64,000 nucleotides of DNA from Bacillota bacterium (lineage in GTDB: Bacteria > Bacillota > Clostridia > Ch29), in assembly GCA_013540605.1 (NCBI GenBank), contig JABVCK010000002.1, forward strand, positions 32,339 to 96,338, given 5' to 3'. Of this stretch, positions 16,458-32,861 are shown piece after piece. How positions within the stretch are numbered: position 1 is the first letter of the stretch; each line of letters opens with the position of its first letter. The position numbers and the translations under genes were made by a program. Below the pieces are notes generated by a model, which had not been told where the DNA came from, did not search any database, and saw only the letters and a list, made by a program, of their open reading frames with translations.

Positions 16458-16490
16458 CTCCCTTCAGAACATTGCGAACATTTCCGGATG

Positions 16491-16959: not shown

Positions 16960-17060
16960 CCTTAGCGGCATACATTATGCCGGTTAAACGGACACAAAAA
17001 ATAAAACGAGCGGTGTTAAGGCTCTCTTCTTCCAAAACACCGCCTGTTAAAAGCCGTTCC
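16960..17060 (+). repeat. Copy H1 of ~80-bp hairpin element derived from metK 3-prime end
   Basis: GCGGTGTTAAGGCTCTCTTCTTCCAAAACACCGCCTGTTAAAAGCCGTTCCCTTGCTATTTGCCGAAGGC ~85 percent identical to 32862-32945, which overlaps the true metK stop. Confidence 0.8.
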
Positions 17061-17164
17061 CTTGCTATTTGCCGAAGGCCTGGTTTTTTAGCAAGTCTTA
17101 TCTTAATTTCATCATTAGGTATAGCTAACCCAGTTCATCTATCCTGAGCAAAAACAGCTGAATA

Positions 17165-17483
17165 TATTAAATAACCACCATCCAAGTTTTTCACTCTGTA
17201 ACCGTTTAATTTTAAACACAAACAGAGGGATAAAACACAAACAGACAACACAAACAGAGGGACAGGTAAATAACCACCATCCAAGTTTTTCACTCTGTAA
17301 CCGTTTAATTTGAGCATTCTGGCAGCTATATATCCCCTGACACACAAACACAAACAGAGGGACATGAACACAAACAGAGGGACAGGTACTGTGTTTGACG
17401 GCCCTTGAGTACAGATAGGATACAAGTAGAAAACGAAGGAACATTATAAAGCATGATGGGATCAATAGGACCGTCCCCATGCT
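17165..17483 (+). repeat. Composite repeat R1: duplicated 44-bp unit, ACAAACAGRGGGACA minisatellite, and 112-bp block shared with 31193-31307
   Basis: AATAACCACCATCCAAGTTTTTCACTCTGTAACCGTTTAATTT at 17170 and 17268; CACAAACAGAGGGACA x5; block 17372-17483 matches 31193-31307 with 1-2 mismatches, bounded by GGGACAGG…CCGTCCCC. Confidence 0.85.
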
Positions 17484-17824
17484 GATTCTTCGTCCTCTGA
17501 TCATAAGGCAATTCTATAAAGATTGTAACACTGTGGTTATTTCCATTCAGTCTGCCTGCAAATTTATTTTTAACATACTGATTATGTCTGATACCAGATC
17601 AAAATATTTACCGATGGTGTCAAGAAGCATAAACTACTTGGCGTTTGCAATCTGGTAGGGGGATGAAAGACGTTCGATATCCACCTAAAAAGTTGCTTAC
17701 AGGCCCTTTTACGCTGCTTGTCGCACTGCCTGTGGCAGAACCGCTGGCCGTAACTTTCAGCTTGATATATTTGCCGGTATCATTTTCGGTGATGATACAC
17801 GTCGCGCCAGTCGCGCCAGGTATG

Positions 17825-18196
17825 TTACTGTAGGTCCCGCTGGTGGACAGCGATCTCATCCACTTTTAAAATCTTTATCCCTCCCATCAAAGGAAGAGGT
17901 TTGGCTTCTCCTTTATAAGCGTTGATGATCCCCAGCACCGCCAGGACAATGACCGCCAGGTTGCCAAGCGGAAGAAGCACAAACCAACCGATGAGGGGAA
18001 TAATGGAACCAAGAACATTTACAATCATAGCTGCCAGGAAAAGCACTAGCCCCTGGTTGGCATGGTACATGGCAAATTTTGATTCCCGGGCGGCCAGCAA
18101 AGGGACAAAAAACAGGATATAGGCCAAGATCGCCACAGTTTTATTCTTGTCGATGTCTTCCGGACTGTACCGTATGTTGCTACCCGGCATTTCCAT
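17825..18196 (-). CDS. Small multi-pass membrane protein (DUF4870-like)
   Basis: 123 aa, 3 TM segments, motif …FAMYHANQGLVLFL…IPLIGW…GIINAYKGEAKPLPLMG…. Confidence 0.55.
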   Translation of the reverse strand: MEMPGSNIRYSPEDIDKNKTVAILAYILFFVPLLAARESKFAMYHANQGLVLFLAAMIVNVLGSIIPLIGWFVLLPLGNLAVIVLAVLGIINAYKGEAKPLPLMGGIKILKVDEIAVHQRDLQ

Positions 18197-18245
18197 TCGT
18201 CATCCACTCCTTTTCTTTAATCTTTATTTCAAATATCCTATGACT

Positions 18246-19295
18246 TTATTCTAAACCCCAAATCCCGCCCCACTCCACCACAGCGTAAGGGCTGCGAACT
18301 ACTTTTTCAGGACAGGCGACAGGGTTGCAGGGTTGCCCCCGGTCCTCCTCGATCAAAAACCACAGCCTGGAGATGCTGATCGGCTCCGGCTCCACAATGA
18401 TAGGCATAATATTCTCCAGAATAGCGGTGCCCTGGGGATAAAAAACGTAGTCCTCCCGGCTTGAAAGCTTTTCCTCCCAGTATTCCACAAAATCGGCAGT
18501 TTCCCTGGCATTGAAGCCGTGCAGCTCCATCAGGCTGCGCAGGTCGTTCCTCAGGTTGTTCCCCCTGATTTTATACCCTTCTTCTCTCTGGAAACCCCGG
18601 TCCGGCACCCGCGCTTCATAAAACAGATAATCGTTGCGACCGTTGAGCGAACCGTTAAAGACTTCGGCCCTCCAGCCCTGTTCCCGGTCGTATGCCGGCA
18701 GGGAATCCGTGATATAGCCGCTGGGCTCCAAGCGGACCTGGACAGCCAGATCCCGGTCAGCGTAAATATAGATGTTGGGCTTGTAAACATCCAGGAAACT
18801 GCGGGCCGCATCGCCCAGGTTTTTTTTCAGCCAAGAAAATATCTTGTCAATGTTTTTCAGGCTGTCTACAGCTATCTTGCCCAGGGTTACAGTGACGGTT
18901 ATGGCCGCCAGCACCGGAAGGGTGGCTGTTCCCGTAGCCAGAGTATAAATTATGACGCCGGTCTGCGCTGCGTTGAGGACAACCTCTGTCCAGCCCGCCA
19001 CCTTGCCCACCATTGTGTGTTCTCCGGCAAGCATGCCGATAGTGCCCGACAATGTGTCGTAAATACCTTTGCCCAGGTTGTAGACAGGCCCGCCAGCCAG
19101 CTTGCAGCCGCCGTCAAAAATATCGTCCGCAACCTTCCCTGTCATACCATCCAACCCTAACACGTCGGAAACAACCCCTGCCCGGACCTGTACGGGATCA
19201 AGCGCAGGATGAAGGCAGACTGCCGCTGTCAGCGCCAGAACCGAAATTATGGCGATTACTTTTGTCCTTGTTCCGCTTATGGACCATCTCAACAT
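18246..19295 (-). CDS. Hypothetical secreted/membrane-anchored protein
   Basis: 349 aa, N-terminal signal anchor, Gly-rich region, high GC codon usage unlike flanks. Confidence 0.55.
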   Translation of the reverse strand: MLRWSISGTRTKVIAIISVLALTAAVCLHPALDPVQVRAGVVSDVLGLDGMTGKVADDIFDGGCKLAGGPVYNLGKGIYDTLSGTIGMLAGEHTMVGKVAGWTEVVLNAAQTGVIIYTLATGTATLPVLAAITVTVTLGKIAVDSLKNIDKIFSWLKKNLGDAARSFLDVYKPNIYIYADRDLAVQVRLEPSGYITDSLPAYDREQGWRAEVFNGSLNGRNDYLFYEARVPDRGFQREEGYKIRGNNLRNDLRSLMELHGFNARETADFVEYWEEKLSSREDYVFYPQGTAILENIMPIIVEPEPISISRLWFLIEEDRGQPCNPVACPEKVVRSPYAVVEWGGIWGLE

Positions 19296-19360
19296 TTTGC
19301 CAACCTTCCTTTAACCCCAAAACCTATTAACCCAAATTTTGGCATCCAGACAGCCTTTGC

Positions 19361-20200
19361 TCAATTGCCGCTGCCAGCCGTCCGGCTGCGGTAATAGCCT
19401 GCTTCCTGCTGCAGCTTAAGAATCTCCTGCCGCAAAGCGGCCTCCGGTTCAAGTTCCAGCGCTTTCTCCAGTTCGGCCAGCGTTTCCCGGTAGTCCATGA
19501 CCAGCAGGTGCGCTCTGGCCAGCTGCACATGAGCCAGGGTCAACTGCGGCTCCATTTCCGCCAGCTGGCCGGAATAGTACCGGGCAGCCTTATAATCTTC
19601 CAACCTGAGAGCGCATTCCCCTGCATACAGCCAGCCTTCAACCAGGCCTGGATCCTGTTGCAGGGCCTTTTGCAGGTTGATCAAGGCTTCTTTGTATTCC
19701 CCCTGCTGGTAATAAGCCAGAGCATAATTGAACAGCTCGGAAGCGTTGAACAGCCTGTACTCTTTAACTTCCCCCAGCACACCCGCCGCTTTTTCCGGCT
19801 GTTTCCCCCTCAAATAAACAGAAGAAAGGTTAAGCCTGAGCTGCGGGACATCCGGATGCTGAGCCAATAGCTCTTTGAGCAGCTGCTCCGCGCGGTCCAG
19901 GTCGCCGGCAGCCAGCAGGGAAACACTTTTCTTTACCGCCCTGTCCAGGTTTTGCGGGCCGGATGAAACTCCTGCGGCAGGCGCCGCCAAAGCCAATACA
20001 ACCGGCAGCGCAACCAGCGCCAAGTTGTAGGCCGAACGTTTTCTCCCGTTTTGCGGGCCAAGCTTTCGCCGGACAGGAGGACAGCCCAACACTGCCGCCA
20101 TGGCCCCGGCCGCCAGGCAGACCCCAGCCCAGGCTTCCCAGCCGGATAAAAGGCTATGCAATAAAACGCCGATTACCACCACTATACCTGCAACAACCAT
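19361..20200 (-). CDS. TPR-repeat protein with N-terminal membrane anchor
   Basis: Start moved to MVVAGIVVVIG; multiple TPR units (…ALAYYQQGEYKEALINLQKALQQDP…). Confidence 0.6.
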   Translation of the reverse strand: MVVAGIVVVIGVLLHSLLSGWEAWAGVCLAAGAMAAVLGCPPVRRKLGPQNGRKRSAYNLALVALPVVLALAAPAAGVSSGPQNLDRAVKKSVSLLAAGDLDRAEQLLKELLAQHPDVPQLRLNLSSVYLRGKQPEKAAGVLGEVKEYRLFNASELFNYALAYYQQGEYKEALINLQKALQQDPGLVEGWLYAGECALRLEDYKAARYYSGQLAEMEPQLTLAHVQLARAHLLVMDYRETLAELEKALELEPEAALRQEILKLQQEAGYYRSRTAGSGN

Positions 20201-20201
20201 T

Positions 20202-22652
20202 TTACTCCTGTCCTTTCTCCCTGATTCTTTCAATCTCAGCCAGCGCATGGTTGTACATGCTGAAAGGTTCGTACAAAGGATTGTCCCGGCGGGGGTTGAG
20301 CGCAATCACTTTGCGGAAAGCACGCTCGGCCCTGGCCAGGTCGCCGGTATGCTTGTAAACCATCCCCAGGCAGAAATACCCTTCCACCACATCCGAACGG
20401 CGCTCAAGAAATTGCAAGAAATTTTCTTCAGCCAGGGGATAACAGTCTTGCTTGAGGTAGCCCGCCATTTCATTGTAATTGACTCCCAGCAAGTAGTAGG
20501 GATAAGCCAGATGGGGGTTCAATTCCAGCAGCCGGGCAAAATGCCTGTTGGACTGCTCATAATCCTCAGCCTGCCTGGCTTCCAGGCCCAAAACATAATA
20601 ATAGGCAAGGGCCGGTTCCTGCTTTTTCTTCAGCTCCGCTATAAAGTCTTGCCCTTTCGTCGTTCCCCAGGAAGCTAATTCCTGGTACTCCAGCAAAAAA
20701 CGGTAAAGGTATTCGTCAATCTTTTTTATTTCATCGGGGCCGGCGCCTTCCCTGTCCGCCTCGCGGCAGAGGCCGGCCAGGGCTGCCAGGGCTGCCGGAT
20801 AATCCTGCATTTGCTGGGAGGCTACGGCCTGAAGGTAGAGCAGGGAAGCATCCTGCGCTCCCTGGGCTTTGATGACAGCCAAAGCCCGGGCAGGCTTTTT
20901 GTTTTCCAAAAGGGTATAAGCGTAATCTCCGGCAATCTCCGCATTCCCCGGGTACTTGGCGTGCATGGCCGCCATCAGCTGCTCAGCCTCTCCGGGGTGG
21001 CCGGATTTTACATACATGTATGAAGTGAACAGAGCCGCCCTGATCTCTTCTTCTTTCTCCCACGGCTTGGCGGTAAAATATTTTCGGGCATATTCATACA
21101 TATAGTCGGGGTAAGGAATCCGTTCCGCCAGCAGCGCCGCCTGGTAATAGCTTTCCGGCCCGGGGTTTTGCTCTGCGTATTCCAGCAATTCCGGCAAAAC
21201 CGCGCTTTCGTTCTCATACTCCGCCCTGTTCAAAAGCACATAAAGCTCTCTTCCCTTCAGCAAGGCCTCGAGTCTGGAGACTTCCTGCCGCAAGCCGGCC
21301 AGCCTTTTCTCCCCGGCGCCTGCCAGTCCGGCAAACCTGTCGCTGAATACACCCCGGGCAATGGCCAAATTAAGCGCCTCCCGGGCCTTTTCCTTCTCTC
21401 CCGCCGCCCAAAAGCCGCCTATGGTCCAGAGCCTGGCTTCGGGGAGGGCCGCAGCATTTTTCCCGGCACTATTGGCGGCTGCAGCCGCAAACAAGGTATT
21501 GATATCCGGATCGGTTTCTGCCTGGGAACTGGCCAGTTTAAGCAGCATCCCCTTGAAATAGGGGACATAGGGCGAATCGGGGCAAATTTCCTCCGCCCTG
21601 GTCAAAAATTCCTGGGCTTCTTCAATTTCACCCTTCTCCCGTATTTCCTTGATCCCCGTCAGGTACCCCAGGAAAGCCGAGAGATCCGCTCGGGCTTTGC
21701 GGTATTCCGAAGAGGCCTCCCCGCCTCGGCCCAGGTTCCATAAATTATCCGCCAGGATTATCCTTGCTTCGATGCTTTTCACAACCTGCCCCGGAGCGTC
21801 CAAATAGGGCAAAACGTTAAAGGCGGCAAACACAAGGGCCAAAACGGCTGCTCCGGCTGGGAACCATAAGGACCCGGCTGCCGGCTGCCCGATTTTTTCT
21901 CCAAATTTCTCCCCGTCTTTGGCCAGCATAAGCTGAGCGCTCCCTAATATCAATAAGGCAAGGGCCGTCTTTCCTCCGGCCAAAAACATCTCCAGGACAT
22001 AGCGGGAAAAAAACCCGTAAGGAAGAAGCCCCTTGAGAAGCACTTCAATTAATCGCATAACCTTGAGAAACACAGCTCCTGCCAGGAGATTGGCCAAGAC
22101 CAACAGCAAAAAGACAGGCAGCCTTCGCAGGCAGACCACAGCCAGAGCGGCGGCCGCCCGTCCTGTGCCGCGGGCAGGAACTCCATACAGCAAAAAAGCG
22201 ATTGCAGACATTCCAGCAAACACGGCAAACACAGCCAAAACCAGCAATAACCCGGCGAAGGTCAAGGCCGCCGCCCAACTGTTTACATCGCCCCGCCCGA
22301 TCATCCCGGCCAGATAATAGGTCCAGGCCCGTATGGCCAGCGGTACTGCCGCAACAACAGCGGCAAGTGGCAGCGTTCCCGCAATAAGTGTCGGGAAGGA
22401 AGCGCGGACGGTCTTAAAGCCGGCAAACGCTTTTCTGGAAAAAACAGCAGCCGCCAGCAGCCCCAGCAAAAAAGACGTGCCGGTAAAAAGAACCTGCAGA
22501 CCCATTGGAACAGGCCTTCCCGTCAGATAGAGAATCAGGCTGTTGAAAAGCCAGCCGCCATTCAGGAGAAAGAAGGCCAGCCAGAGCCAGCTCCAGTATC
22601 GGGCTGCGTATTTTGTTTCGGATTCCTTGAGAAGATTCAAATATTCTATCAT
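20202..22652 (-). CDS. Large polytopic membrane protein with C-terminal TPR repeats
   Basis: 816 aa; ~10 predicted TM helices in N-terminal half, TPR-like helical repeats in C-terminal half; ~65 percent GC. Confidence 0.6.
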   Translation of the reverse strand: MIEYLNLLKESETKYAARYWSWLWLAFFLLNGGWLFNSLILYLTGRPVPMGLQVLFTGTSFLLGLLAAAVFSRKAFAGFKTVRASFPTLIAGTLPLAAVVAAVPLAIRAWTYYLAGMIGRGDVNSWAAALTFAGLLLVLAVFAVFAGMSAIAFLLYGVPARGTGRAAAALAVVCLRRLPVFLLLVLANLLAGAVFLKVMRLIEVLLKGLLPYGFFSRYVLEMFLAGGKTALALLILGSAQLMLAKDGEKFGEKIGQPAAGSLWFPAGAAVLALVFAAFNVLPYLDAPGQVVKSIEARIILADNLWNLGRGGEASSEYRKARADLSAFLGYLTGIKEIREKGEIEEAQEFLTRAEEICPDSPYVPYFKGMLLKLASSQAETDPDINTLFAAAAANSAGKNAAALPEARLWTIGGFWAAGEKEKAREALNLAIARGVFSDRFAGLAGAGEKRLAGLRQEVSRLEALLKGRELYVLLNRAEYENESAVLPELLEYAEQNPGPESYYQAALLAERIPYPDYMYEYARKYFTAKPWEKEEEIRAALFTSYMYVKSGHPGEAEQLMAAMHAKYPGNAEIAGDYAYTLLENKKPARALAVIKAQGAQDASLLYLQAVASQQMQDYPAALAALAGLCREADREGAGPDEIKKIDEYLYRFLLEYQELASWGTTKGQDFIAELKKKQEPALAYYYVLGLEARQAEDYEQSNRHFARLLELNPHLAYPYYLLGVNYNEMAGYLKQDCYPLAEENFLQFLERRSDVVEGYFCLGMVYKHTGDLARAERAFRKVIALNPRRDNPLYEPFSMYNHALAEIERIREKGQE

Positions 22653-22718
22653 GCATCACAACAACCCTTCTGTCTTGGAAACGCATTTTGTATGCCAATC
22701 TCGGAGCTTATGCGCCTA

Positions 22719-25700
22719 TTACTGCCTGCTCGAAATGGTTACCGTCCGTGTTGTCCCGTCCCAGTTGATGTCACAATTCAGGTTTTCCGCCACAAACCTT
22801 ACAGGGACGTATGTCCGGGCCCCGATAATTATAGGCGGCACGTCGTTTGTAACCGATGCCCCGTTTACCAGCATCTTTACGCTGTCTACCCACATCTCAA
22901 GCATTGTGCCCTTGCCGGCAACCGTAATTTTTCTCTCGTCCTCTTTCCAGCTGATGCTGCCCCCTAAAGCTTCCACTACGGCCCTTATCGGCAGGATGGT
23001 CCTCCCTTCCTTAATAAGCGGCACTGTTCCTCTTCCCGGATCGATCTCCACCCTGCTGCCGTTTATCGTCATATAGGGATCGCCGATAGTCAGAGCAATA
23101 ATGATGTTTTGGCTTTGCCCGTCGCCGTCATCCCCCCAAGTATTGCCAGGGCTGCTTTCACCGGCATCGCCCGTTGCAGACTCCCCGGTCTCCTCGCCCG
23201 AAGAAGCGGGAAGCTCAAGCTGTATCGCCGGCAGCCTGATCTCCCCAAAAGGAGGCACAAAAAGCCTGCTGCCGCCCGGTTCCTGGCTGCCTGCTGAGGA
23301 TGCTTTTTGCCAGTTGGAAAAGAGCAGTTCTATTTTCTGGTAATAACCGTCGCAGAAAACAGCCTTGAGGGGCAGGTTGCTGCCCGGAGCGATAAATAGC
23401 TGTACTTTGACGTAAATATTCATGATGGGGTCGATCTTTTTGCTCTTTTCCCAGACCTGGCAGGAAATGCCGTTGACCTGTTCCGTCCCTTTCAAGACAA
23501 AAGGAACGTTCTGCAATTCCGGGATATAGTCGTCCAAATCGTAGCGGACGCTTTCTTTCCTGGGAAACTCCTGGTACTGCACAACCTTGGTGCCGGCTGT
23601 TTTATCCCACATTAGGATGGGATCGCGGGCGCCGCTTTCAACCCTTTGCTGCCCGTTCAGGACAGAGAATTTTATGTTGCTGCTGTAGGAAGGGGTGGAG
23701 GCTGCGGCGGAGGGATAGTATTTGACTGTCACTCCGGCAGCGCAGTTTTGCGCGGAAAGGGCCGTGTCGCCCGCCGCCGGGCTTTCCGCCGGCATCTGCC
23801 CTTCCAGCATTATTGCTCCCAGCGTTTTCAGGTAATAGCCGGCCGGGACGGAACCCACCAACGGAACGGTCTTTTCAATTTTGCCGATAAGGCCGCTGCT
23901 TCTTTCCTCCTCGCACGTCTTGGCCTCATTGAAATACTCCAGCTTTTTGCCTTCAACATAAAATTTCACTGATTCAAACACATGGTAGTTTACGGAACGC
24001 CCCCCTGCCAAAGAACTCCGGAACCTGTCCAATGGGGATGTAATCAGGCTCGCCAGGCTGTGCAGGTCCAGTTCCCAGGGGCCTGTGCCGGCAAAAGAGT
24101 ACCCTCTGCCGTAAACGGGTGTAAACTGCAGGCGCCACTCCCTGGACTTCAGCGAATTTTCCGGGCTGGCGCTGTGAGGATAAAGGGCCTCCACTTTAAA
24201 GTGAGCTTCTCCGTTAAAAGGCGGGACCGTCCCCGGGCCACCCAAGACCACGGTACTGTTTGGAGAGCTCAAGCTGTGTGCTTCCTGCAAGTAGCCTCCG
24301 GCAACAGAAACAGTCAGGCCGTCCGCTTCAACTACGGTGCTGTTGATGGTGAAGCCCTCGCTGTCAACCACGGCATATACCCGGTCAAAGGGGCGCAGAT
24401 CAACTCCCTGCAGCTGAAAGGCGCCGCCGGAGCTTTGTGCCTGCAACCTTATGGTATATTCAACAGGGAGCGAAAGATCCTCTTGGTGATGCAGGGGAAT
24501 ATTATTGGACCGTTCTATAAACAGCGAAACAGGCCCGTTGTATGACGAGAGCCCCTGGCCGGAACCACTCACATACCCCTTAACGGTATTTGATAGATAA
24601 TCGGCAACCTCCACGGCAACGTGATTATATGGGAAGCTCGCCTCACGGGGATAGGACCATAAATCGCCGCTCCCGGGAATCTTTACCCTCACCTGGTCAC
24701 CCTTTTTCAAGTCAAAAGACCTGCTGAAAAACCCGGAGTTGTCGGTGGAGGCGACAAGAAGCTTTTCAACCCCGGAATAGCTGGTTACCTTTAACAGGAT
24801 TTCCTGGTTGGCGTACGGTTTTCCCGTCCCTTTTTCAACAATGCTCCCCTGGATTATATCCCGGTAGGCACAAGCCTCGGCAATATCAATATTGTAAGAG
24901 CTGGAGCGCGCTTTGACATAATTGAAAATGGGATATTTATACTCATAAATTGTTTTGCTTTTATCAAAGGATTTGATCTTTACCCTGCCGTAAATTTTTG
25001 CGAAGCCATCGCCTTTAATGCTCAAGTAATCTCCGATTCCGCCTTGGACGCCGGCTTTGGCTTCCAAAAGAACGCCAATCTTGTTGTCCAGAATGACCTT
25101 TCCCTTGCCCAGGATGTCAAAGGCCACCTCGGCAAGCAGGCTGAGCTCTCCCTTTACGTCGGCGGAGAGGGATAATTCCTCGGGCGAAAATTCAAAGCTT
25201 ACCTCTTTGACAACATTAAAGCTCGTAGGCAGGTAATACGAGGTGCTTCCCTGCAATCCCGCTCTGACAGAAGAACTCTGCTTCACAGAATATTCCAGAG
25301 TGATCTTGCCGTCAACTCCCAAGACCAGGAAAAACCCAACCGTGATCTTGCAGCCTTCTGCAGGAACAGTAAAATCATAAAGCGGGATTTTAACATCTTT
25401 TTTCAGCTGGGCGAGCAGCTCTGCCTGCACTTCGGCCCTCTGGGAAGCATAAAAGATAAATTTATAGCCGCTCTCTTCCGTGTATTTGACCTCCACGGCG
25501 GGGGAATCGATATTAAGGCTTCCCTTCAAAGTAACCTCGACACGTTTCCCCTCCTGGTCGTACCCCGGCAGCGTCTGCTTTTCATTAAAATAAAAATTAA
25601 AGCCTGCCCTCTCCGTTGTGCCCGATTTCATCTTGTATGAAGCGATATTAATCCCTTGCGCCAGGTATGTAATATTGGCCTCATTGAGAAATACCGTCTG

Positions 25701-26180
25701 TTCGGGGATGGAGAGCTCCTCCACAAGTTTGTCATCGTCCGCAAGGAGGATGTATAAGATGCCTCCCTCTCCCCTGACAAACTCCAGGGCTATAAGGGAA
25801 GAGGGATCGATATAAATTTTGCCCGGCTCGACCTCAGGCAAAAGAGATGAACTTATTTTCCCGCCGCTGGCATGGTTTTTTATCGCCTGCGCCTGTGCTT
25901 CGCTCAACCAGCTCACACCGGGTTTCAATTTCAGATGGATGTTTTTCAGGGACGCGGGCTGGAGGCCGTTTGACCTGGCCTCCCGGGAGATGTCGGGAAG
26001 GCTAGGCGGGCCGATTTTTTGAAGAAGTTCACCTTCGATGAGGCTTAGTGATTTTGCATCATTTAGGGTAAAAGCATAGGCAGAAAAGCCGGGCATGGTC
26101 CAAGCAATTACCAGGACCGGCAAAAGGAAAAATATGACCAGTTTTTTAACTGAAGTAAGCCTGAACATACTAAAAATCAC
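22719..26180 (-). CDS. Large secreted protein with C-terminal copper-amine-oxidase N-terminal-like (stalk) domain
   Basis: 1153 aa; signal peptide MIFSMFRLTSVKKLVIFFLLPVLVIAWTMPGFSAYA; C-terminal …TINGSRVEIDPGRGTVPLIKEGRTILPIRAVVEALGGSISWKEDERKITV… characteristic of Cu_amine_oxidN1 domains common in Clostridia. Confidence 0.6.
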   Translation of the reverse strand: MIFSMFRLTSVKKLVIFFLLPVLVIAWTMPGFSAYAFTLNDAKSLSLIEGELLQKIGPPSLPDISREARSNGLQPASLKNIHLKLKPGVSWLSEAQAQAIKNHASGGKISSSLLPEVEPGKIYIDPSSLIALEFVRGEGGILYILLADDDKLVEELSIPEQTVFLNEANITYLAQGINIASYKMKSGTTERAGFNFYFNEKQTLPGYDQEGKRVEVTLKGSLNIDSPAVEVKYTEESGYKFIFYASQRAEVQAELLAQLKKDVKIPLYDFTVPAEGCKITVGFFLVLGVDGKITLEYSVKQSSSVRAGLQGSTSYYLPTSFNVVKEVSFEFSPEELSLSADVKGELSLLAEVAFDILGKGKVILDNKIGVLLEAKAGVQGGIGDYLSIKGDGFAKIYGRVKIKSFDKSKTIYEYKYPIFNYVKARSSSYNIDIAEACAYRDIIQGSIVEKGTGKPYANQEILLKVTSYSGVEKLLVASTDNSGFFSRSFDLKKGDQVRVKIPGSGDLWSYPREASFPYNHVAVEVADYLSNTVKGYVSGSGQGLSSYNGPVSLFIERSNNIPLHHQEDLSLPVEYTIRLQAQSSGGAFQLQGVDLRPFDRVYAVVDSEGFTINSTVVEADGLTVSVAGGYLQEAHSLSSPNSTVVLGGPGTVPPFNGEAHFKVEALYPHSASPENSLKSREWRLQFTPVYGRGYSFAGTGPWELDLHSLASLITSPLDRFRSSLAGGRSVNYHVFESVKFYVEGKKLEYFNEAKTCEEERSSGLIGKIEKTVPLVGSVPAGYYLKTLGAIMLEGQMPAESPAAGDTALSAQNCAAGVTVKYYPSAAASTPSYSSNIKFSVLNGQQRVESGARDPILMWDKTAGTKVVQYQEFPRKESVRYDLDDYIPELQNVPFVLKGTEQVNGISCQVWEKSKKIDPIMNIYVKVQLFIAPGSNLPLKAVFCDGYYQKIELLFSNWQKASSAGSQEPGGSRLFVPPFGEIRLPAIQLELPASSGEETGESATGDAGESSPGNTWGDDGDGQSQNIIIALTIGDPYMTINGSRVEIDPGRGTVPLIKEGRTILPIRAVVEALGGSISWKEDERKITVAGKGTMLEMWVDSVKMLVNGASVTNDVPPIIIGARTYVPVRFVAENLNCDINWDGTTRTVTISSRQ

Positions 26181-26202
26181 TTCCTCACATCTTTATTGGC
26201 AA

Positions 26203-26520
26203 TTACTTCTTACCACCCGGCATATTTCCGGACATCTCTTTAAGGCTTTCAGCCATGCCTTCTGGTGCCGGCACCAGGCTGATAGCCAGCGAAGTCGGGT
26301 AGTCTTTGAGTTCCTTGTCCTGCTCACTATTTTTAGTCACACAGACAGTATAAGTGTAGTCGTCTTTTGCTCCCATAATGGTGTATTCATCTGCCTGAGC
26401 CGTCTGTGAGATGATCTGGGAATCCCTAGTTCCATAGCTTGCAGGGAAAAGCCGCTTAGAACTGACAACGCCGTTGAACAGATTGCCAAGCTCCTTTTCC
26501 GTAAAATGACTTATTCTCAT
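26203..26520 (-). CDS. Hypothetical protein, translationally coupled to upstream lipoprotein gene (ATGA overlap)
   Basis: 105 aa ORF overlapping lipoprotein stop by 4 nt. Confidence 0.4.
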   Translation of the reverse strand: MRISHFTEKELGNLFNGVVSSKRLFPASYGTRDSQIISQTAQADEYTIMGAKDDYTYTVCVTKNSEQDKELKDYPTSLAISLVPAPEGMAESLKEMSGNMPGGKK

Positions 26521-27059
26521 TTTACAGGCTGCAAAGAAATGGTTATTATAGTCTGGTACCCCTTCTCGGTGCTTTTGCCCACGTCCATAGTATAGGCGTA
26601 CCCGCTTTTCGTTCCCATTGAAGTAAGGCTTTCGTCGGTTTTCGTGTCCATGTTGACCTGTGCTCCCTCCAAAACTTTTTCATAAAAAGCAATAACCTTT
26701 TTAACTTCGTCCTTGCTGAAAGCCGAAATGGTATATGAGCCTTCCAATTCGATTGCCGAGTAAATGAAGCTTCCTTCATATATAGGGAATTTGTCTGAGG
26801 GATAGCCTTTTGGCAATTCAACGCTTTTATCGGTTGCCACCGACAGGGAGCCGTCCCCGTTTTCGACCGACAGGGAGCCGTCTTTAGTTTTAACCGAAAT
26901 TGAAGTTTGCCCCGATTCTTGCGATTCGGCCGGTTTTTGCGCCTGTGAGGTTGCGCTTTTCATATCCTGCCCGGCTTGCTTGGGTTTATCGCTTGAGCAC
27001 CCCGTAAAAACAAGAGACATTAAGGCTGAGACAATAAAGCAAATAAATATTTTTTTCAT
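26517..27059 (-). CDS. Lipoprotein
   Basis: Start at MKKIFICFIVSALMSLVFTGC (lipobox FTGC); Ser/Gln-rich linker then globular domain. Confidence 0.6.
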   Translation of the reverse strand: MKKIFICFIVSALMSLVFTGCSSDKPKQAGQDMKSATSQAQKPAESQESGQTSISVKTKDGSLSVENGDGSLSVATDKSVELPKGYPSDKFPIYEGSFIYSAIELEGSYTISAFSKDEVKKVIAFYEKVLEGAQVNMDTKTDESLTSMGTKSGYAYTMDVGKSTEKGYQTIITISLQPVK

Positions 27060-27259
27060 GTTAAAACCCCCGTTTTTGTTTAAAATTAGGCTGTTTTTTA
27101 GAAATCCGCCCTGCGTAAATCCCAACCGCGAAATTGAAAAATATACCCAAAAATATTATAATATAAGGATAAAAGGTAAAAATAGTGCCGCAAGTCATCT
27201 TATCAATGACTTGCGGCTAATGATAAAAGCTATTGTTTTTTGCGGCGGAGGAAGCGAAA

Positions 27260-28978
27260 ATGACCGAAACCTTCGTGTATGAATCTTACTATATTGCTTT
27301 TTATCATATTCTTTCCCTGTTTTTGCTGGTCTTTATCAACGCGGTGATTTATCTTAAGGCGGTGAAAAGCTCATTATTGTCCTCGTTTTTTGTGTTGCAG
27401 GGCATACTTGCGCTCTGGATTGTCTCAAAGATTCTGAAAACATTTGCGCCAAATGCGGAGATAAAGTTTTTCTTTGTTGTTTGCCAGTATGCCGGCGTTT
27501 GCTTTCTGGGTCCGGCTTTTATTGTGTTTGCCCATATTTTTGCTAACGGCGTTAAACCTGCCAAAAAGCTTATGCTGCCGTTGTTTATAGTATCAGCTCT
27601 ATGCTTTTTGACAGTTGCGACAAATCCACTGCATTATTTATTTTATACACATTTTGATTTTTGGGGAGACAGCTTCGGGCCGCTTTTTTATTTCCAGCAA
27701 GGATTTAATTATTTGTTGTTTCTCATCGGAGGTATAATATGCGGAAAAAGGTTTTTTGGCCGGTTCAGCGAAAAACGCATTCAGACGATCCTGCTTGCCA
27801 TTGCGATAGCTATACCCATGATTGCCAATCTTCTCTATGTGTTCCGCTTTTTTAAGAAAATTTTCGGTTTTTCGCCGCCGTTTGACATAACGCCCATGTC
27901 CGCGTCTGCATCCCTTATCCTATTTGCCTTTGCCACCTTTAAGTTTCAATTCTTTGACAATCTTAAAATTGCCCGCAGGGTTGCTTTGTCCAATGTCCCG
28001 GAAGGTATCCTGCTTGTAATAGGAGACAGGATTGCAGGTTTTAACGAAACCTTTAATAAAATGGCGGCTGACGGCAAACTTGTTCCCGCAGGCAAAGAAA
28101 GCATCGTCAGGACTTTTGGCAATGCCGCCCGTTTGCATAATCGTCAAAAGCTGTCTGTTGCCTTTGATACGGGCAAGCCTCAGGATTTCATTTATCAAAC
28201 CGGAGTTCGCAGCTACATAAGTGTTATTTGCCGGCCGGTAAGAGATAAATCGTTCAGCGGAGCATTTATACGCTTTATTGATGTTACGGCAAAGCAAGGC
28301 ATTCTGGAAAAGCTGCAGATGAGAAATGACGAATTGCAGTTTGCCAATCAACAATTGACAATTCAAGCCGAACTGAAAAAAAAGCTTGTTGTGGCCAGAA
28401 CGCGCAATTTTATAGCACAGGAAGCCCACGACATATTGGGACATTCAATCATGCTTGCAATTTCCTTATTGGAAATAGCCCGAATGTGCAATACGGCGTC
28501 TCAGGGAATGGAATACATGCATAGAGCAAAAAAAATTTTATCCGACTGTCTGAAGGAAATCAACTCGGTTGCTTCGGCGGAAAACCAAAGCCCTTTGATA
28601 AGGCAAAGCATCGAAGAACGGTTGGAAAAACTTGCTGATGATTTCCGCTCGGCATTTATTGCCGTGGGGATTCACTGCTCCAATTTGAAGCAGGAGATTG
28701 ACATCTCAATAGAAAGCACCCTGTTCAAGCTGTGCCGCGAAGGCATAACCAATGCATTGCGGCATGGGAAGGCAAGCAGGGTAGACATTATTTTGCGAGA
28801 TAAAAACGAGATGATAGAACTGTTTATCATAGACAACGGCTCGGGATGCGGGAAGGTGCAAAAAGGCATGGGCTTAAGCGGCATGGAGCAGCGGGTTTCC
28901 ATGCTGAAAGGCGCCTTTCGCTGCCATACTTTAGACGGTCAGGGATTTTGCGTACAAGCGTCCATCCCTCTTCATTAA
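27260..28978 (+). CDS. Sensor histidine kinase, multi-TM N-terminal sensor + HisKA_3 + HATPase (NarL-partner type)
   Basis: 7-8 TM helices; H-box AQEAHDILGHSIM; N/G boxes (…GITNALRHGKAS… / …DNGSGCGKVQKGMGLSGMEQR…); start moved to ATG at 27260 after GGCGGAGGAAG. Confidence 0.8.
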   Translation: MTETFVYESYYIAFYHILSLFLLVFINAVIYLKAVKSSLLSSFFVLQGILALWIVSKILKTFAPNAEIKFFFVVCQYAGVCFLGPAFIVFAHIFANGVKPAKKLMLPLFIVSALCFLTVATNPLHYLFYTHFDFWGDSFGPLFYFQQGFNYLLFLIGGIICGKRFFGRFSEKRIQTILLAIAIAIPMIANLLYVFRFFKKIFGFSPPFDITPMSASASLILFAFATFKFQFFDNLKIARRVALSNVPEGILLVIGDRIAGFNETFNKMAADGKLVPAGKESIVRTFGNAARLHNRQKLSVAFDTGKPQDFIYQTGVRSYISVICRPVRDKSFSGAFIRFIDVTAKQGILEKLQMRNDELQFANQQLTIQAELKKKLVVARTRNFIAQEAHDILGHSIMLAISLLEIARMCNTASQGMEYMHRAKKILSDCLKEINSVASAENQSPLIRQSIEERLEKLADDFRSAFIAVGIHCSNLKQEIDISIESTLFKLCREGITNALRHGKASRVDIILRDKNEMIELFIIDNGSGCGKVQKGMGLSGMEQRVSMLKGAFRCHTLDGQGFCVQASIPLH

Positions 28979-28981
28979 GCT

Positions 28982-29665
28982 CTATATAATATTGTTTTGC
29001 AGGGCAAACACGGCAATTTGCGTCCTGTCCTTCAAGCCGGTCGCAGTCAAAATGCGCGTTATCCTGTTTTTTATTGAACCTTCGGAATAATTCAGAGCCT
29101 CGCCGATCTCTTTATTGCTTTTTCCGTCTGCCAAAAGCCTGATAATCTTTCTGTCAATCGCGTCGAGACCATATTCGTCGTGCAACTCCTCCAACGCCTC
29201 AAGCTCATTTGCTTTTTTTGAAGCCAACGGCTTAATCTGCTTGCGAACCAGTCCGGCAATTTCATCCTGCATGACAAACAAACCCTCAAAAACGCATTTT
29301 ATAGCCATTATTAGCATTGGGGGCTTAATATCCTTCAAAACATAACCGTTTGCGCCTTTTTTGTATGCTTCCAGCACATTTCTTTCATCTCCGAATGTAG
29401 TGAGCATAACGACCTTTATATGCGGCATTTCTCTTTTTAGGGTTTCCAGTGCAAAAACGCCGTCCCTGAGAGGCATTTTTATGTCGAGAAGCACAATATC
29501 CGGGTTTCTTTTACGGCAAATACCAAGGATTTCCTCCCCATTGCCTGCAAGGCCTACAATTTCCATTTCACTGTCGGATGAAAGAACCATTGAAAGCATT
29601 TCCCGAAGCAGCACCTGGTCATCGGCGATGGCTATTTTAATCATCTTTCCCATCCTTTCCGCCAT
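28982..29665 (-). CDS. Response regulator, NarL/FixJ family (REC + LuxR HTH)
   Basis: 227 aa; MIKIAIADDQVLLREML…DIVLLDIKMP… receiver; C-terminal LTATGLKDRTQIAVFA HTH. Confidence 0.85.
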   Translation of the reverse strand: MAERMGKMIKIAIADDQVLLREMLSMVLSSDSEMEIVGLAGNGEEILGICRKRNPDIVLLDIKMPLRDGVFALETLKREMPHIKVVMLTTFGDERNVLEAYKKGANGYVLKDIKPPMLIMAIKCVFEGLFVMQDEIAGLVRKQIKPLASKKANELEALEELHDEYGLDAIDRKIIRLLADGKSNKEIGEALNYSEGSIKNRITRILTATGLKDRTQIAVFALQNNII

Positions 29666-30776
29666 CCGGCATCAGTTTTTGCATGGCAAGGCGCACCCCT
29701 GCCATCGCTTCCCGGCAGTTTTCTATCAAAGCCGGCAGTTTTTCCTGCTTATTGCAAAAGGACACCGCTTCAAGATCTGAAAGCAGTTTTTCAATCTTGG
29801 CTCCGACCGCTTCCTTTATTTCTTTTGCGGCTTTTGCTTTCTGTTCTTCTTCCACAAGTTTTTCGGCGGTATCCAAAAAAGTCTTAAGCTGAATGTTCAG
29901 TTTTTCAAGTTCGGCATTTTTATCCGCCAGTTCTTTTTCAAGCAGCGATTTTTCCGTTATGTCGTGAAAATTCAGTACTGTAGCCTGAATGCTTCCCTTT
30001 TTATCCTTTACCTGGGTTGTGCCGCATTGGTAGTGCTTTATGCCATTGGAAAAGGAAAGCGCAATTTCTTCATGCCGCACCATGCCGTTCTTTTCGGCGC
30101 ACTTTTTTGAAACGGTCATTGCCTTCAGGCTTTCAAGGAACTCATTTATCGTCAAACCCTCATGCAGAAATGGCCATGTTTTTTTTGCCTGCACGTTGGC
30201 ATCAATAAGTTTCCCGCTTTTTTCGAATATCAGCACCATGTCGTCAAGCTCCTGCATGAAACTGTCGATTGACACGTGCGAAAGCTCCGCAAACAGGCTG
30301 CATCTTGACCAAATCAGAAACATGCTGAAAACGCAGAAATCCAGCACAGGCAGATAATCAGCCAATACGCCGGACCTGTTTTTCCATAGGTAAAAAACAC
30401 ACATAATGTGTATCAGGAAAACCAGGCCAAACATGCCGCATTGTCTGGGACCGCACCCTCCGCGATACATGCCGAAAAAAACGCATAACAGCGGGACAGC
30501 GGCCAACATGGCAATAAACCGCCGCAAATCCAGGTACATGTCCTGAAATTCAAGCGTAGGAGAAACAAGCGCCAATAACCCCATAACCGGCAGGCATAAC
30601 AACCCGAGCAAAGTAATAATAATTACCCAGAATAAAAAGCTTTTCCCAACTTTTATAAATCCATATGCGCATAAAAAGGCTCCAAACACGATGCAGGCAA
30701 TTGTGATTGCAATCAGAAGCATGGCATATGGGGAATAAGCGGCATAATAGTCTATCATCCTCACTCCTCCAGCCAC
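29637..30776 (-). CDS. Membrane sensor protein with PAS-like domain and degenerate His-less HisKA_3-like coiled coil, no ATPase domain
   Basis: 379 aa; 5-6 TM helices, PAS-like region, then EEEQKAKAAKEIKEAVGAKIEKLL where kinases have ERxRIARELHDxxGQ; overlaps RR gene by 29 nt. Confidence 0.55.
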   Translation of the reverse strand: MAGGVRMIDYYAAYSPYAMLLIAITIACIVFGAFLCAYGFIKVGKSFLFWVIIITLLGLLCLPVMGLLALVSPTLEFQDMYLDLRRFIAMLAAVPLLCVFFGMYRGGCGPRQCGMFGLVFLIHIMCVFYLWKNRSGVLADYLPVLDFCVFSMFLIWSRCSLFAELSHVSIDSFMQELDDMVLIFEKSGKLIDANVQAKKTWPFLHEGLTINEFLESLKAMTVSKKCAEKNGMVRHEEIALSFSNGIKHYQCGTTQVKDKKGSIQATVLNFHDITEKSLLEKELADKNAELEKLNIQLKTFLDTAEKLVEEEQKAKAAKEIKEAVGAKIEKLLSDLEAVSFCNKQEKLPALIENCREAMAGVRLAMQKLMPDGGKDGKDD

Positions 30777-31102
30777 AGTTTAAATTCTTCCAGCCTCATA
30801 CCGCCGTTCAAGCACAATTCCCGTTTCTTCCTTGCTTCGTCAGACCACTCATAAAAAGCTTCTTTGTTATTTTTCTGTACTTTATCCATGCAAAGCGTTT
30901 CTTGTATGCCTTGCTGTACGCCTTCAAAGCCAGATTTCCTTCCTTCTTTTTCTCCCATAGGCGGAGCGCCCCCATTTCCTTGCAGGTACGCCCAGCGCTG
31001 TCAAAAGGTCTATCACAGTATCCCGTATTATCGATTACTTTTAAAACCATTATATATAAGTGTTAACAAGAAAACCAGCATGGAATAGAATGTCATTATG
31101 GA

Positions 31103-31307
31103 CTATAGAATATAATTATTGATATCAAACAGGGGGACAAACAGGGGGACAGGACAAACACAGACAAACAGGGGGACAGGTACTGTGTTTGGACAAACAG
31201 GGGGACAGGTACTGTGTTTGACGGCCCTTGAGTACAGATAGGATACAAGTAGAAAACGAAGGAACGTTATAAAGCATGATGGGATCAATAGGACCGTCCC
31301 CATGCTT
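31103..31307 (+). repeat. Composite repeat R2: CAAACAGGGGGACA minisatellite plus 115-bp block shared with 17372-17483
   Basis: CAAACAGGGGGACAAACAGGGGGACAGGACAAACACAGACAAACAGGGGGACAGGTACTGTGTTTGGACAAACAGGGGGACAGGTACTGTGTTTGACGG…CCGTCCCC. Confidence 0.85.
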
Positions 31308-31334
31308 CCCCCATGCTTCTATGCTTCCTTGCGT

Positions 31335-32345
31335 TTAAAAACTGTCTGGCGGAAAAGCATATCTACATTCGTTAAAGTTAGCAAGTCTGTGTATGCAATT
31401 ATCAATGGCCGTTTGCAGCTTCTTTGTCTGCTTTACACCTTTTTCATACCAGATATTTTTCACAACCAACGTTTTCGCCTTGCGGTCACGTATTACCTCA
31501 ACTCTGCCGATAAAGCGGTCGCCGTACAGCAGCGGTAGGACATAGTAGCCGTATTTACGCTGTGCTTCAGGCGTGTAGATTTCCCATTTGTAGTCAAAAT
31601 CAAACAGTGCCTTGATAAGCCGCCTGTCCCAAAGTATATTATCAAGCGGAGCAATTAGCTCACAACGGGCTTTTAGTTCAGGTTCCTGCAGGACTGTTTC
31701 GAGTAATCCCCGGTCGGTCGAAAGGCAATACAGCTTGTCCTTAATGCCATCAACCGTAATTTCAAGGATTTTTTCTTCTGCAAGCAACTGCCTGAAAATC
31801 TCGTTTCGCTCGGCAGATTTCAATCCCCAGATATTTAGCCACGCATCGGAAGACTTGTTCCACAGTAGTCCCACTCCACCAATTCGGCGCAGCACACGCC
31901 ATTTTTGGTGATCAAGCTCATCGGGATACGGCTCCGGTGTGTTCAACAGTTCAACAGCAATACAGTTCTCTGCAAGGTCGTAATACTTTATTGTCCCTTT
32001 CTTGTGGTGCACCACCAAATCACCACGGAAATACATGGTTTCCAGGGCGGCACGGGAGAGCTTTGTATCACTCCAATACCATTTAACCCTATCATTAAAC
32101 CCAATATCAGCTGACGAAACAGCACCCTTTTTGCGAATGATATTCTTGATTTCCTCGCATACGGCATCGACCTCGCAGTGACTTCTGCCGCCGGTTTTAT
32201 ATGCTTCACGATACCGCCTGAAATAAGGCCAGTCTGAGGTTTCTATAATCGCAAGGTTTTTATCGAAGTAGTCGAGTAGTGTTCTGTCCTCGTATAAAAG
32301 TGAATACAGCCTTATTATATTCTCTACGTTAACAAAAAAACACTG
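31335..32345 (-). pseudogene. YcaQ/AlkZ-family winged-helix DNA glycosylase homolog, N-terminally truncated (no start codon in first ~100 codons after upstream stop)
   Basis: Reading frame open from stop at 32346-32348 to 31335 (…SDWPYFRRYREAYKTGG…YGYYVLPLLYGDRFIGRVEVIRDRK…) but first ATG is MYFRGD at 32036; YcaQ family normally ~400 aa. Confidence 0.5.
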
Positions 32346-32848: not shown

Positions 32849-32861
32849 GTAATAGGAAGGA

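What the first reader, a model, noticed from the sequence alone, without database searches (positions are those of the whole stretch)
17165..17483. Composite repeat: 44-bp duplicated unit, ACAAACAGRGGGACA minisatellite and a ~100-bp module with GGGGACAGG…CCGTCCCC inverted ends
Both R copies consist of short tandem CAAACAG(A/G)GGGACA units. They run into a conserved ~100-bp module: GGGGACAGGTACTGTGTTTGACGGCCCTTGAGTACAGATAGGATACAAGTAGAAAACGAAGGAACNTTATAAAGCATGATGGGATCAATAGGACCGTCCCC. Its termini are inverted (GGGGACNG / CNGTCCCC), like a MITE or a structured small RNA. R1 additionally has a 44-bp unit repeated twice, 98 bp apart. The two ~100-bp modules differ by a single base, which implies recent copying or gene conversion.
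Basis: seen in the sequence. Interest (0 to 1): 0.55.

Follow-up and report, generated by a model that had tools for sequence, protein, structure and literature searches.

The report
Unstable hairpin repeats in a genomic island
The composite repeat is real: it is two copies of a pair of facing DNA hairpins from a small repeat family scattered between genes, each trailed by unstable partial self-duplications, sitting in a foreign DNA island; it is most likely non-coding "junk-like" repeat DNA, not a gene.

Summary
A 114-nt block at 17370-17483 recurs at 31193-31306 with 2 mismatches. The unit CAAACAGRGGGACA occurs four times at each site and essentially nowhere else. A 45-nt unit is duplicated at R1.

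The "100-bp module with inverted ends" is two convergent hairpins whose loops carry GGGGAC(A)GGT. The "minisatellite" is a run of partial copies of the left hairpin. Each copy starts at the foot of the 5' arm and stops at a variable point. Hairpins with the same loop motif, different stems and the same 5' reiterations lie at 47.2 kb and 59.2-59.3 kb. The left hairpin core also occurs in two other, apparently distantly related bacterial contigs.

The arrays differ between near-identical strains, so they are hypervariable. Both copies lie in a ~15.8-kb accessory segment inserted in the 3' end of metK. Four related lineages lack this segment, and it carries no integrase.

There is no Rfam hit, no significant fold of the whole module, no target-site duplication, and no phage or plasmid match.

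Best reading: members of a REP/REPIN-like palindromic repeat family with hairpin-anchored tandem duplications, kept alike by gene conversion or recent copying. It is a new variant of a known kind, of moderate interest.

The parts
17168..17212 (.). 45-nt unit, copy 1 (R1)
   Evidence: 100% identical to 17267-17311. It is single-copy in strain L001 and truncated in L002.
17213..17266 (+). Partial copies of the left hairpin 5' arm (ACACAAACAGAGGGATAA / ACACAAACAGAC / ACACAAACAGAGGGACAGGTA), lying between the two 45-nt units
   Evidence: This block is absent from L001 and L002, so it is a strain-specific 99-bp tandem duplication.
17267..17311 (.). 45-nt unit, copy 2 (R1)
17341..17370 (+). R1 proximal partial copies of the left hairpin 5' arm
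   Evidence: All R1 units carry CAGAGGG.
17371..17397 (+). R1 left hairpin CAAACAG-AGGGACAGGTA-CTGTGTTTG (loop motif GGGACAGGT)
   Evidence: The 27-nt core is identical in L004 and 24 of 25 in L005.
17398..17449 (.). R1 spacer between the two hairpins (function unknown; contains ATAGGATAC, which is also kept in L004)
17450..17483 (-). R1 right hairpin, read on the minus strand: AGCATG-GGGACGGTCCTATTGATCCCAT-CATGCT
   Evidence: the R2 copy folds at -7.6 kcal/mol, z -3.0.
31126..31193 (+). R2 array: partial copies of the left hairpin, plus one full extra hairpin at 31165-31191
   Evidence: All R2 units carry CAGGGGG. The array is shorter in L006.
31194..31220 (+). R2 left hairpin CAAACAG-GGGGACAGGTA-CTGTGTTTG
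31221..31272 (.). R2 spacer
31273..31307 (-). R2 right hairpin (minus strand) AAGCATG-GGGACGGTCCTATTGATCCCAT-CATGCTT
31308..31326 (-). R2 partial copies of the right hairpin 5' arm (minus strand AAGCATAG / AAGCATGGGGG)
   Evidence: L024 has one more unit.
16998..17085 (-). 88-nt repeat D8a: displaced copy of the last codons and terminator of metK, next to DUF1659
   Evidence: family D8, 85%.
32861..32948 (-). 88-nt repeat D8b: 3' end and terminator contiguous with metK
17086..32860 (.). About 15.8-kb accessory segment (island) holding both R1 and R2. It is absent between metK and DUF1659 in four related lineages.
47246..47288 (+). Family member: TATATCAAGGGGAC partial copy followed by hairpin TATATCAAG-GGGACGGTTCT-CTTGATATA
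   Evidence: z -4.7. L020 and L019 have a full 41-nt tandem copy here.
59203..59241 (+). Family member: GGGACAAT x2 followed by hairpin TGGGACAA-TGGGGACGGTTCTCT-TTGTCCCA
   Evidence: z -3.9.
59260..59322 (-). Family member on the minus strand: CGGGACAxGG partial copies followed by hairpin GGGACA-CGGGGACAGGTGCCT-TGTCCC. With the previous element it forms a convergent doublet.
   Evidence: the doublet 59203-59292 folds at -22.9 kcal/mol, z -4.5.

Best explanation
R1 and R2 are two copies of a doublet of convergent small palindromic elements. They are REP/REPIN-like, but the conserved motif, GGGGAC(A)GGT, sits in the hairpin loop and the stems differ from locus to locus. The doublet is the '100-bp module with inverted ends'.

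The 'minisatellite' is a by-product of these hairpins. It consists of tandem partial duplications that always begin at the foot of the hairpin's 5' arm and end at a variable point. They are made locally from the neighbouring full hairpin. They change quickly, so near-identical strains differ.

Shown here: the repeat anatomy, the existence of the family, the local origin of the partial copies, the differences between strains, and the location inside an accessory island in the 3' end of metK.

Inferred: the duplications arise when the extruded hairpin stalls or is nicked during replication, and synthesis restarts at its foot. The family spreads, or is kept, through a factor that reads the loop on one strand. 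The two module copies are kept alike by gene conversion or a recent duplication. No gene product is made from the element.
For: Anatomy of the repeat.

Hairpin family.
- GGGAC[A]GGT lies at 8 independent places in the window. Six of these are flanked by a stem of at least 6 bp, against a background probability of 0.128 for random positions under the same scan, giving a binomial P of about 1e-4.
- The stems are all different but paired (98% of cells).
- The same motif occurs four times (two independent sites) in 37 kb from four related lineages, and none has a stem.
- As DNA, the individual hairpins at 47.2 kb and 59.2 kb, the right hairpin, and the 59.2-kb doublet fold better than shuffles (z -3 to -4.7).

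5'-side reiteration. It is seen at the left hairpin, the right hairpin (R2), 47.2 kb, 59.2 kb (+), 59.3 kb (-) and L004, always on the 5' side as defined by the motif, whichever strand the element is on.

Local origin of the partial copies. All R1 units have CAGAGGG, all R2 units have CAGGGGG, and the L017 units have CATGGG.

Hypervariability. The arrays differ between assemblies whose flanks are 99-100% identical, at R1, R2 left, R2 right and 47.2 kb.

Conservation. The 27-nt left hairpin is identical in an unrelated Clostridia MAG (L004) and near-identical in a metagenome contig (L005), which carries a second hairpin with loop GGGGACGGTGTA beside it. In L017 the hairpin is kept while the spacer next to it has diverged beyond easy alignment.

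Not a gene or known RNA.
Against: - The whole genome is not available, so the family rests on 5-6 loci in 64 kb plus 3 hairpins elsewhere.
- The hairpins used for the pairing count were picked by a stem-requiring scan, so one search is partly circular.
- Under a maximal-order Markov model the bare motif is hardly enriched (7 observed against 5.7 expected for GGGACGGT).
- The left hairpin is thermodynamically weak (-3.7 kcal/mol, z -1.5).
- Classical REPs carry their conserved tag (GTAG or CGTC) at the foot and have 2-5-nt loops (PMC3733652). Here the conserved part is an 11-22-nt loop.
- No RAYT or other transposase is in the window.
- Some differences between strains could be short-read assembly errors, because most contigs end inside these repeats.
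- The mechanism of duplication is inference only.
Confidence: 0.5

Rival explanations
1. The two 114-nt blocks are attachment-site repeats (attL/attR or arm-type binding-site clusters) left by site-specific integration. In one version a 13.8-kb element is bounded by R1 and R2. In another, R1 and R2 are the recombinase-binding arms of the metK island, and the CAAACAGRGGGACA units are arm-type sites.
For: The repeats are direct and flank 13.8 kb. Both lie in an island inserted in the 3' end of metK that has its own 88-nt flanking repeat. R1 sits about 80 bp from the island edge, and does so in the more distant L017 as well. Gene fragments (DUF6076, AlkZ-like) lie next to R2.
Against: There is no integrase, recombinase or excisionase anywhere in the segment. 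R2 is 1.55 kb from the other island edge. No assembly shows an empty R site. Unit number and spacing change between strains, which is unlike functional arm sites. Hairpins of the same kind occur in core regions far from the island (47.2 kb and 59.2 kb).
Confidence: 0.13
2. The hairpins act at the RNA level. They would be 3'-UTR or 5'-UTR stem-loops whose conserved loop is bound by a protein or pairs with another RNA, for example as mRNA stabilisers, terminators or a decoy. The module would then be a small transcript or UTR element.
For: A conserved loop with covarying stems is the classical signature of a single-stranded recognition element. In L005 the two hairpins fill the whole gap between convergent genes. 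At 47.2 kb the element lies between convergent genes. The right hairpin lies 29 nt after the AlkZ-like stop, in sense orientation.
Against: There is no Rfam family and no promoter or terminator pattern at the module. The module fold is not significant. Orientation relative to neighbouring genes is not consistent. The one internal difference between R1 and R2 hits the only good -10-like hexamer (TATAAT to TATAAC on the minus strand). DNA-level duplications anchored at the hairpin foot are not explained by an RNA role.
Confidence: 0.17
3. The module is a classical cut-and-paste MITE with terminal inverted repeats (C)AAACAGGGGGACAGGTACT / AGGACCGTCCCCATGCTT, mobilised by a DDE transposase encoded elsewhere.
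For: The ends are inverted, the size is about 115 bp, there are two nearly identical copies, and it lies in non-coding DNA next to pseudogenes.
Against: The flanks show no target-site duplication (R1 GGACATGAAC / GATTCTTCGT; R2 CTGTGTTTGG / TCCCCCATGC). The inverted repeat is only about 13 of 20. Single hairpins of the family occur alone (47.2 kb). There is no third copy in the window and none in phage or plasmid collections. Only the 27-nt hairpin, not the module, is shared with L005, and L004 shares about 50 nt.
Confidence: 0.08
4. The unit arrays are functional protein-binding iterons. They would be operators for the adjacent two-component regulator or a sporulation factor, or origin iterons next to a nick-site hairpin.
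For: Direct repeats lie next to a hairpin with a conserved loop, which is the layout of rolling-circle and CRESS-type origins (own knowledge). A LuxR-type regulator and kinase lie 1.5-4 kb from R2.
Against: Spacing is irregular (12, 27 and 29 nt in R2; 32, 100 and 20 nt in R1) and copy number differs between strains. There is no Rep or initiator gene. The units are simply truncated copies of the hairpin.
Confidence: 0.05

Closest known systems
REP elements and REPIN/BIME doublets (repetitive extragenic palindromes, mobilised by RAYT transposases)
   Same: These are short imperfect palindromes scattered in intergenic DNA, often as convergent pairs that can fold into one long hairpin (59203-59292, z -4.5). 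They are polymorphic between strains, and the families contain sub-types with different stems.
   Different: Classical REPs have a conserved GTAG or CGTC tag at the foot, 6-13-bp stems and mostly 2-5-nt loops, and the survey of tagged REPs does not mention Firmicutes (PMC3733652). Here the conserved motif lies in a loop of about 11-22 nt, the stems vary from locus to locus, no RAYT was seen, and each hairpin carries foot-anchored partial duplications.
Bacterial minisatellites / VNTR loci (e.g. MIRU-type)
   Same: They are head-to-tail repeats in intergenic DNA whose copy number differs between close strains.
   Different: The units here are not full repeats of fixed length. They share a fixed start and have variable ends, and they are always attached to one side of a hairpin.
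MITEs (for example Correia/NEMIS, RUP, BOX)
   Same: It is a non-coding element of about 100 bp with inverted ends, present in more than one copy.
   Different: There is no target-site duplication, the terminal repeat is weak, there are only two copies in the window, and its two ends are independent family members with different stems.
Replication-origin or nick-site hairpins of HUH-endonuclease systems (rolling-circle plasmids, IS200/IS605, CRESS viruses)
   Same: A hairpin with a conserved loop and a variable stem has direct repeats beside it. Duplications with a fixed start are what a strand-specific nick followed by displacement synthesis would give (inference).
   Different: There is no Rep or TnpA gene nearby, there are many chromosomal sites, and the loop motif matches none of the nick sequences I know (own knowledge). 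Nothing here shows that nicking occurs.

Membership tests
REP / REPIN | Short (20-40 nt) imperfect palindrome able to form a stem-loop | tested here: met
   The hairpins are 27-35 nt with stems of 6-10 bp.
REP / REPIN | Many interspersed extragenic copies sharing a consensus | tested here: inconclusive
   There are 5-6 loci in 64 kb, all but one doubtful case (39.5 kb) extragenic. The genome-wide count could not be obtained, and one related 21-mer gave single hits only in the public collections.
REP / REPIN | Conserved unpaired GTAG or CGTC tag at the foot of the stem | tested here: not met
   The conserved motif GGGGAC(A)GGT lies in the loop and the feet differ between loci. The feature is defined in PMC3733652.
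REP / REPIN | Inverted doublets (head-to-head or tail-to-tail) | tested here: met
   The module (left hairpin on +, right hairpin on -) and the 59203-59322 pair are both doublets.
REP / REPIN | RAYT (Y1 HUH transposase) gene in the genome, flanked by the repeats | not testable with these tools
   None was found among the ORFs scanned against Pfam (roughly half of the ORFs of at least 90 aa, so several were not scanned).
MITE | Terminal inverted repeats | tested here: inconclusive
   About 13 of 20 positions match, with one indel.
MITE | Target-site duplication flanking each copy | tested here: not met
   The flanks of R1 and R2 share no direct repeat.
MITE | Multiple dispersed copies and a related autonomous element | tested here: not met
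   There are two copies in the window, none in phages or plasmids, and no transposase with matching ends. The IS seen in L023 has unrelated ends.
Known small RNA / cis-regulatory RNA families (Rfam 15) | Match to a covariance model | tested here: not met
   Nothing was found at gathering score in the window or at E<=10 over R2. Only chance microRNA-like hits appear at 59.2 kb.
Structured small RNA (generic) | Fold more stable than shuffled sequence, with promoter and terminator | tested here: not met
   z is -1.42 on + and -0.35 on -, and no flanking signals were found.
Integrative-element att repeats | Direct repeats bounding a segment absent from relatives | tested here: met
   This holds for the 88-nt D8 pair around 17086-32860. 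For the R1/R2 pair no empty site was seen.
Integrative-element att repeats | Integrase or recombinase gene inside, next to an att site | tested here: not met
   The Pfam scans of the island's ORFs found none.
Minisatellite / VNTR | Tandem units with copy-number differences between strains | tested here: met
   The caveat is that these are short-read assemblies.
Origin iterons | Regularly spaced repeats beside an initiator gene | tested here: not met
   The spacing is irregular and there is no initiator gene.

The most novel reading that the evidence does not exclude
The hairpins may be substrates of a strand-specific enzyme that reads the GGGGAC(A)GGT loop on single-stranded DNA, for example an HUH-type or other nicking or recombining protein encoded elsewhere. 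This would define a REP-like element class in Clostridia in which the loop, not a foot tag, is the recognition element. Enzyme action at the hairpin foot would leave the fixed-start, variable-end duplications. The 27-nt left hairpin, identical across genera, would be its most mobile or most constrained member.
Probability: 0.15. Interest if true: 0.65.

Novelty: new variant of a known kind. Interest (0 to 1): 0.36.

Why it matters
If the reading is right, this uncultured Firmicute (and at least two other Clostridia) carries a palindromic repeat family built differently from the classical REPs of Proteobacteria. The loop is conserved, the stems are free to vary, and each hairpin has one-sided duplications anchored at its foot.

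Such loci are natural strain markers, because they differ between assemblies whose flanks are 99-100% identical. They also break short-read assemblies: most related contigs end inside them. They could offer a handle on how hairpins provoke duplications in vivo.

For annotation, it means the region should not be called an sRNA gene or a transposon. It also flags a ~15.8-kb degenerate island in the 3' end of metK.

Tried and rejected
- tRNA, tmRNA or a known RNA: none found near either site.
- Protein-coding: only spurious ORFs cross the repeats.
- Phage or plasmid origin: blastn of R1 found nothing, and a viral-contig scan for the 21-mer found nothing.
- A 13.8-kb mobile element bounded by R1 and R2: it has no mobility genes.
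- DGR template/variable repeat pair: there is no reverse transcriptase, and the blocks differ at only two positions.
- Sigma-70 promoter in the module: the spacings do not fit, and the L004 homologue has a different spacing.
- Intrinsic terminator: the scan found none.
- Restriction-site avoidance of GGGAC: the word is not depleted.
- CsrA-type GGA-loop decoy, SpoIIID, WalR or PhoP boxes, KOPS, dif and parS: compared from memory only, and none fits the motif or the variable spacing.
- Footprint of a loop-targeting insertion element (as IS1397 targets REP loops): considered, but not testable here.
These collections evidently lack the samples that hold this organism, so the count is uninformative.
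- Out-of-window sampling of the same genome yielded only about 2 kb.
- Literature: nothing was found on DUF6076 or on REP/RAYT in Firmicutes.

Full report
**1. Observation**

The repeat finder gives a 114-nt direct repeat, 17370-17483 and 31193-31306, at 98% identity, and a 45-nt exact repeat, 17168-17212 and 17267-17311. A pairwise alignment shows that the two 114-nt blocks differ at two positions, both A in R1 and G in R2.

CAAACAGRGGGACA with up to 2 mismatches occurs 9 times against 0.95 expected. Four matches are in each locus and one is a stray. Sensitive blastn of R1 against the window finds no third module.

**2. What the module is made of**

The left end is an imperfect palindrome, CAAACAG-(A/G)GGGACAGGTA-CTGTGTTTG. 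The right end, read on the minus strand, is a second palindrome, AAGCATG-GGGACGGTCCTATTGATCCCAT-CATGCTT. Both carry GGGGAC(A)GGT in the loop.

Scanning the window for this motif found the same design elsewhere:
- 47260-47288, TATATCAAG-GGGACGGTTCT-CTTGATATA
- 59211-59241, TGGGACAA-TGGGGACGGTTCTCT-TTGTCCCA
- minus strand 59286-59260, GGGACA-CGGGGACAGGTGCCT-TGTCCC
- a doubtful case inside a gene at 39.5 kb

Of 8 independent places with GGGAC[A]GGT, 6 have a flanking stem of at least 6 bp. Only 12.8% of random positions do under the same scan, which gives a binomial P of about 1e-4. In 37 kb from four related lineages the motif occurs four times (two independent sites), never with a stem.

The stems are all different yet paired. 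This count is partly circular, because the members were chosen by a scan that required a stem. As DNA, the individual hairpins at 47.2 kb and 59.2 kb and the right hairpin fold better than shuffles. The left hairpin is weak. The 59.2-kb pair folds into one long hairpin with z -4.5.

**3. What the 'minisatellite' is**

Read on the strand where the loop is GGGGAC(A)GGT, every array is a series of copies that start at the foot of the 5' arm and stop after a variable length, followed by the full hairpin.
- R2: CAAACAGGGGGA | CAAACAGGGGGACAGGA | CAAACACAGA | CAAACAGGGGGACAGGTACTGTGTTTGGA | full.
- 47.2 kb: TATATCAAGGGGAC | full.
- 59.2 kb: GGGACAAT | GGGACAAT | full.
- 59.3 kb on the minus strand, and the right hairpin of R2 (AAGCATAG | AAGCATGGGGG | full), show the same thing on the other strand.
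- L004 has CAAACAG | full.

The reiteration is on the motif-defined 5' side in all six independent elements, whichever genomic strand they are on. A mechanism that depended only on fork direction would not give this.

The partial copies carry the local variant of their own hairpin: CAGAGGG throughout R1, CAGGGGG throughout R2, and CATGGG in L017. They were therefore made in place.

**4. Hypervariability**

Assemblies from other samples have flanks 99-100% identical to the window but differ inside the arrays.
- The R1 locus is rearranged in L001 and L002. There the 45-nt unit is single or truncated.
- The R2 left array is shorter in L006.
- The R2 right unit is present three times in L024 against twice in the window.
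- At 47.2 kb, L020 and L019 have a full 41-nt tandem copy where the window has 14 nt.
- The 59-kb locus is identical in L018.

Most related contigs end inside the repeats. This fits a multi-copy sequence, but it also means that some differences could be assembly errors.

**5. Genomic setting**

The window is core chromosome of an uncultured Firmicute, named 'Firmicutes bacterium', locus tag HPY66, by one source. It carries flagellar genes, recD2, metK, tRNAs, mreB, spoIID, murA and the atp operon.

In four related lineages metK is followed directly by DUF1659, about 110-180 bp downstream depending on the gene call. In the window about 15.8 kb lies between them. This segment is bounded by an 88-nt, 85%-identical direct repeat that comprises the last codons and the terminator of metK.

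The segment encodes TPR proteins, a copper-amine-oxidase-N-domain protein, a kinase/regulator pair, a frameshifted AlkZ-like gene and a truncated DUF6076 fragment. It encodes no recombinase. In other populations an IS sits at position 32365.

R1 lies about 80 bp inside one edge, and is in that position in the more distant L017 as well. R2 lies 1.55 kb from the other edge, next to the truncation point of DUF6076.

The module copies are far more alike (98%) than the island's own flanking repeats (85%). In L017 the hairpin is kept while the adjacent spacer has diverged.

**6. Outside this organism**

The 21-mer AACAGRGGGACAGGTACTGTG gave one hit in the genome collection. That is L004, a Clostridia MAG, where the hairpin lies upstream of a tRNA-Val promoter and about 50 nt of the module, including ATAGGATAC, is shared.

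It gave two hits in metagenomes. L006 is the R2 locus itself. L005 is another bacterium, in which this hairpin and a second one with loop GGGGACGGTGTA fill the gap between convergent genes. Nothing was found in viral contigs, phage records or plasmids.

**7. Explanation**

The best-supported reading is a REP/REPIN-like family of small palindromic elements with locally generated, unstable, foot-anchored tandem duplications.

The mechanism is inferred. Either the extruded hairpin stalls synthesis and the nascent strand restarts at the foot after copying a variable stretch, or a loop-reading factor nicks one strand at the foot. The constant 5'-side polarity favours a strand- or sequence-specific component.

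The rivals are listed with their tests: att or arm sites of the island, RNA-level hairpins, a classical MITE, and iterons. None is excluded outright. The RNA rival is the strongest, because a conserved loop with free stems is also what a protein-bound RNA hairpin looks like.

**8. Comparison and novelty**

Against the published definition of REPs (PMC3733652; PMC12306157), this family meets the palindrome, extragenic and doublet criteria. It fails the foot-tag criterion and has much longer loops. RAYT association could not be tested.

It is not filed as a REP member. It is described as REP-like in behaviour, and I rate it a new variant of a known kind. Interest is moderate: it is a real and somewhat unusual repeat architecture and a useful strain marker, but probably non-functional DNA.

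Noticed in passing
window 5647-5883, 8053-8144, 16478-16681, 34162-34213, 36702-36856, 40397-40607: Intergenic arrays with a strict 7-nt period. The left half is made of [C/T]AGNNNN units and the right half of CT[G/A]NNNN units, so each array is a long imperfect dyad. This is a second, unrelated repeat family that fills many intergenic gaps.
   Followed up: no
window 17086-32860 (repeats 16998-17085 and 32861-32948): A roughly 15.8-kb accessory segment is inserted in the 3' end of metK. It is flanked by an 88-nt 85% direct repeat that duplicates the last metK codons and the terminator. It is absent in four related lineages and has no integrase.
   Followed up: yes
window 30761-31050 and 31335-32330: There are two decayed genes. 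One is a DUF6076 fragment that is frameshifted and lacks its first ~67 profile positions, ending right beside R2. The other is an AlkZ-like glycosylase split by a frameshift near 32036.
   Followed up: partly
L023 1-2068 and L025 1-165 (junction at window 32365): In other populations of the same organism an insertion sequence encoding a 633-aa DDE_Tnp_1 transposase sits at window position 32365, replacing the AlkZ-like side of the alignment.
   Followed up: partly
window 45243-47309: The molybdopterin oxidoreductase ORF runs through the 47.2-kb hairpin element. Its called length therefore changes with the repeat copy number: 688 aa here and 675 aa in L019.
   Followed up: partly
window 56742-57870: The atp operon has a single c-subunit gene (95 aa) followed by a fused gene with three c-subunit repeats (278 aa). 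It shows up as four diverged 249-292-nt repeats (families D4 and D6).
   Followed up: no
window 50565-50614: A 23-nt tandem duplication (TTTATATCCTCCGTTCCTGACAC x2.2) covers the ribosome-binding region just upstream of murA on the minus strand.
   Followed up: no
window 2203-2407, 34353-34460, 35116-36487: There is a raiA RNA (184 bits), a SAM riboswitch upstream of metK (91 bits) and a cluster of five tRNA genes.
   Followed up: no
window 32441-32465: GGAGTGACGGGGGGACGGAGTCGCC is a short GTGAC/GTCGC stem around GGGGGGACGGA, inside the island near metK. It may be a diverged relative of the hairpin family.
   Followed up: no
L004 3245-3320 (minus strand of the locus): A tRNA-Val(CAC) gene with a good extended -10 promoter lies about 70 nt from the conserved hairpin, in an otherwise unrelated Clostridia MAG.
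   Followed up: no
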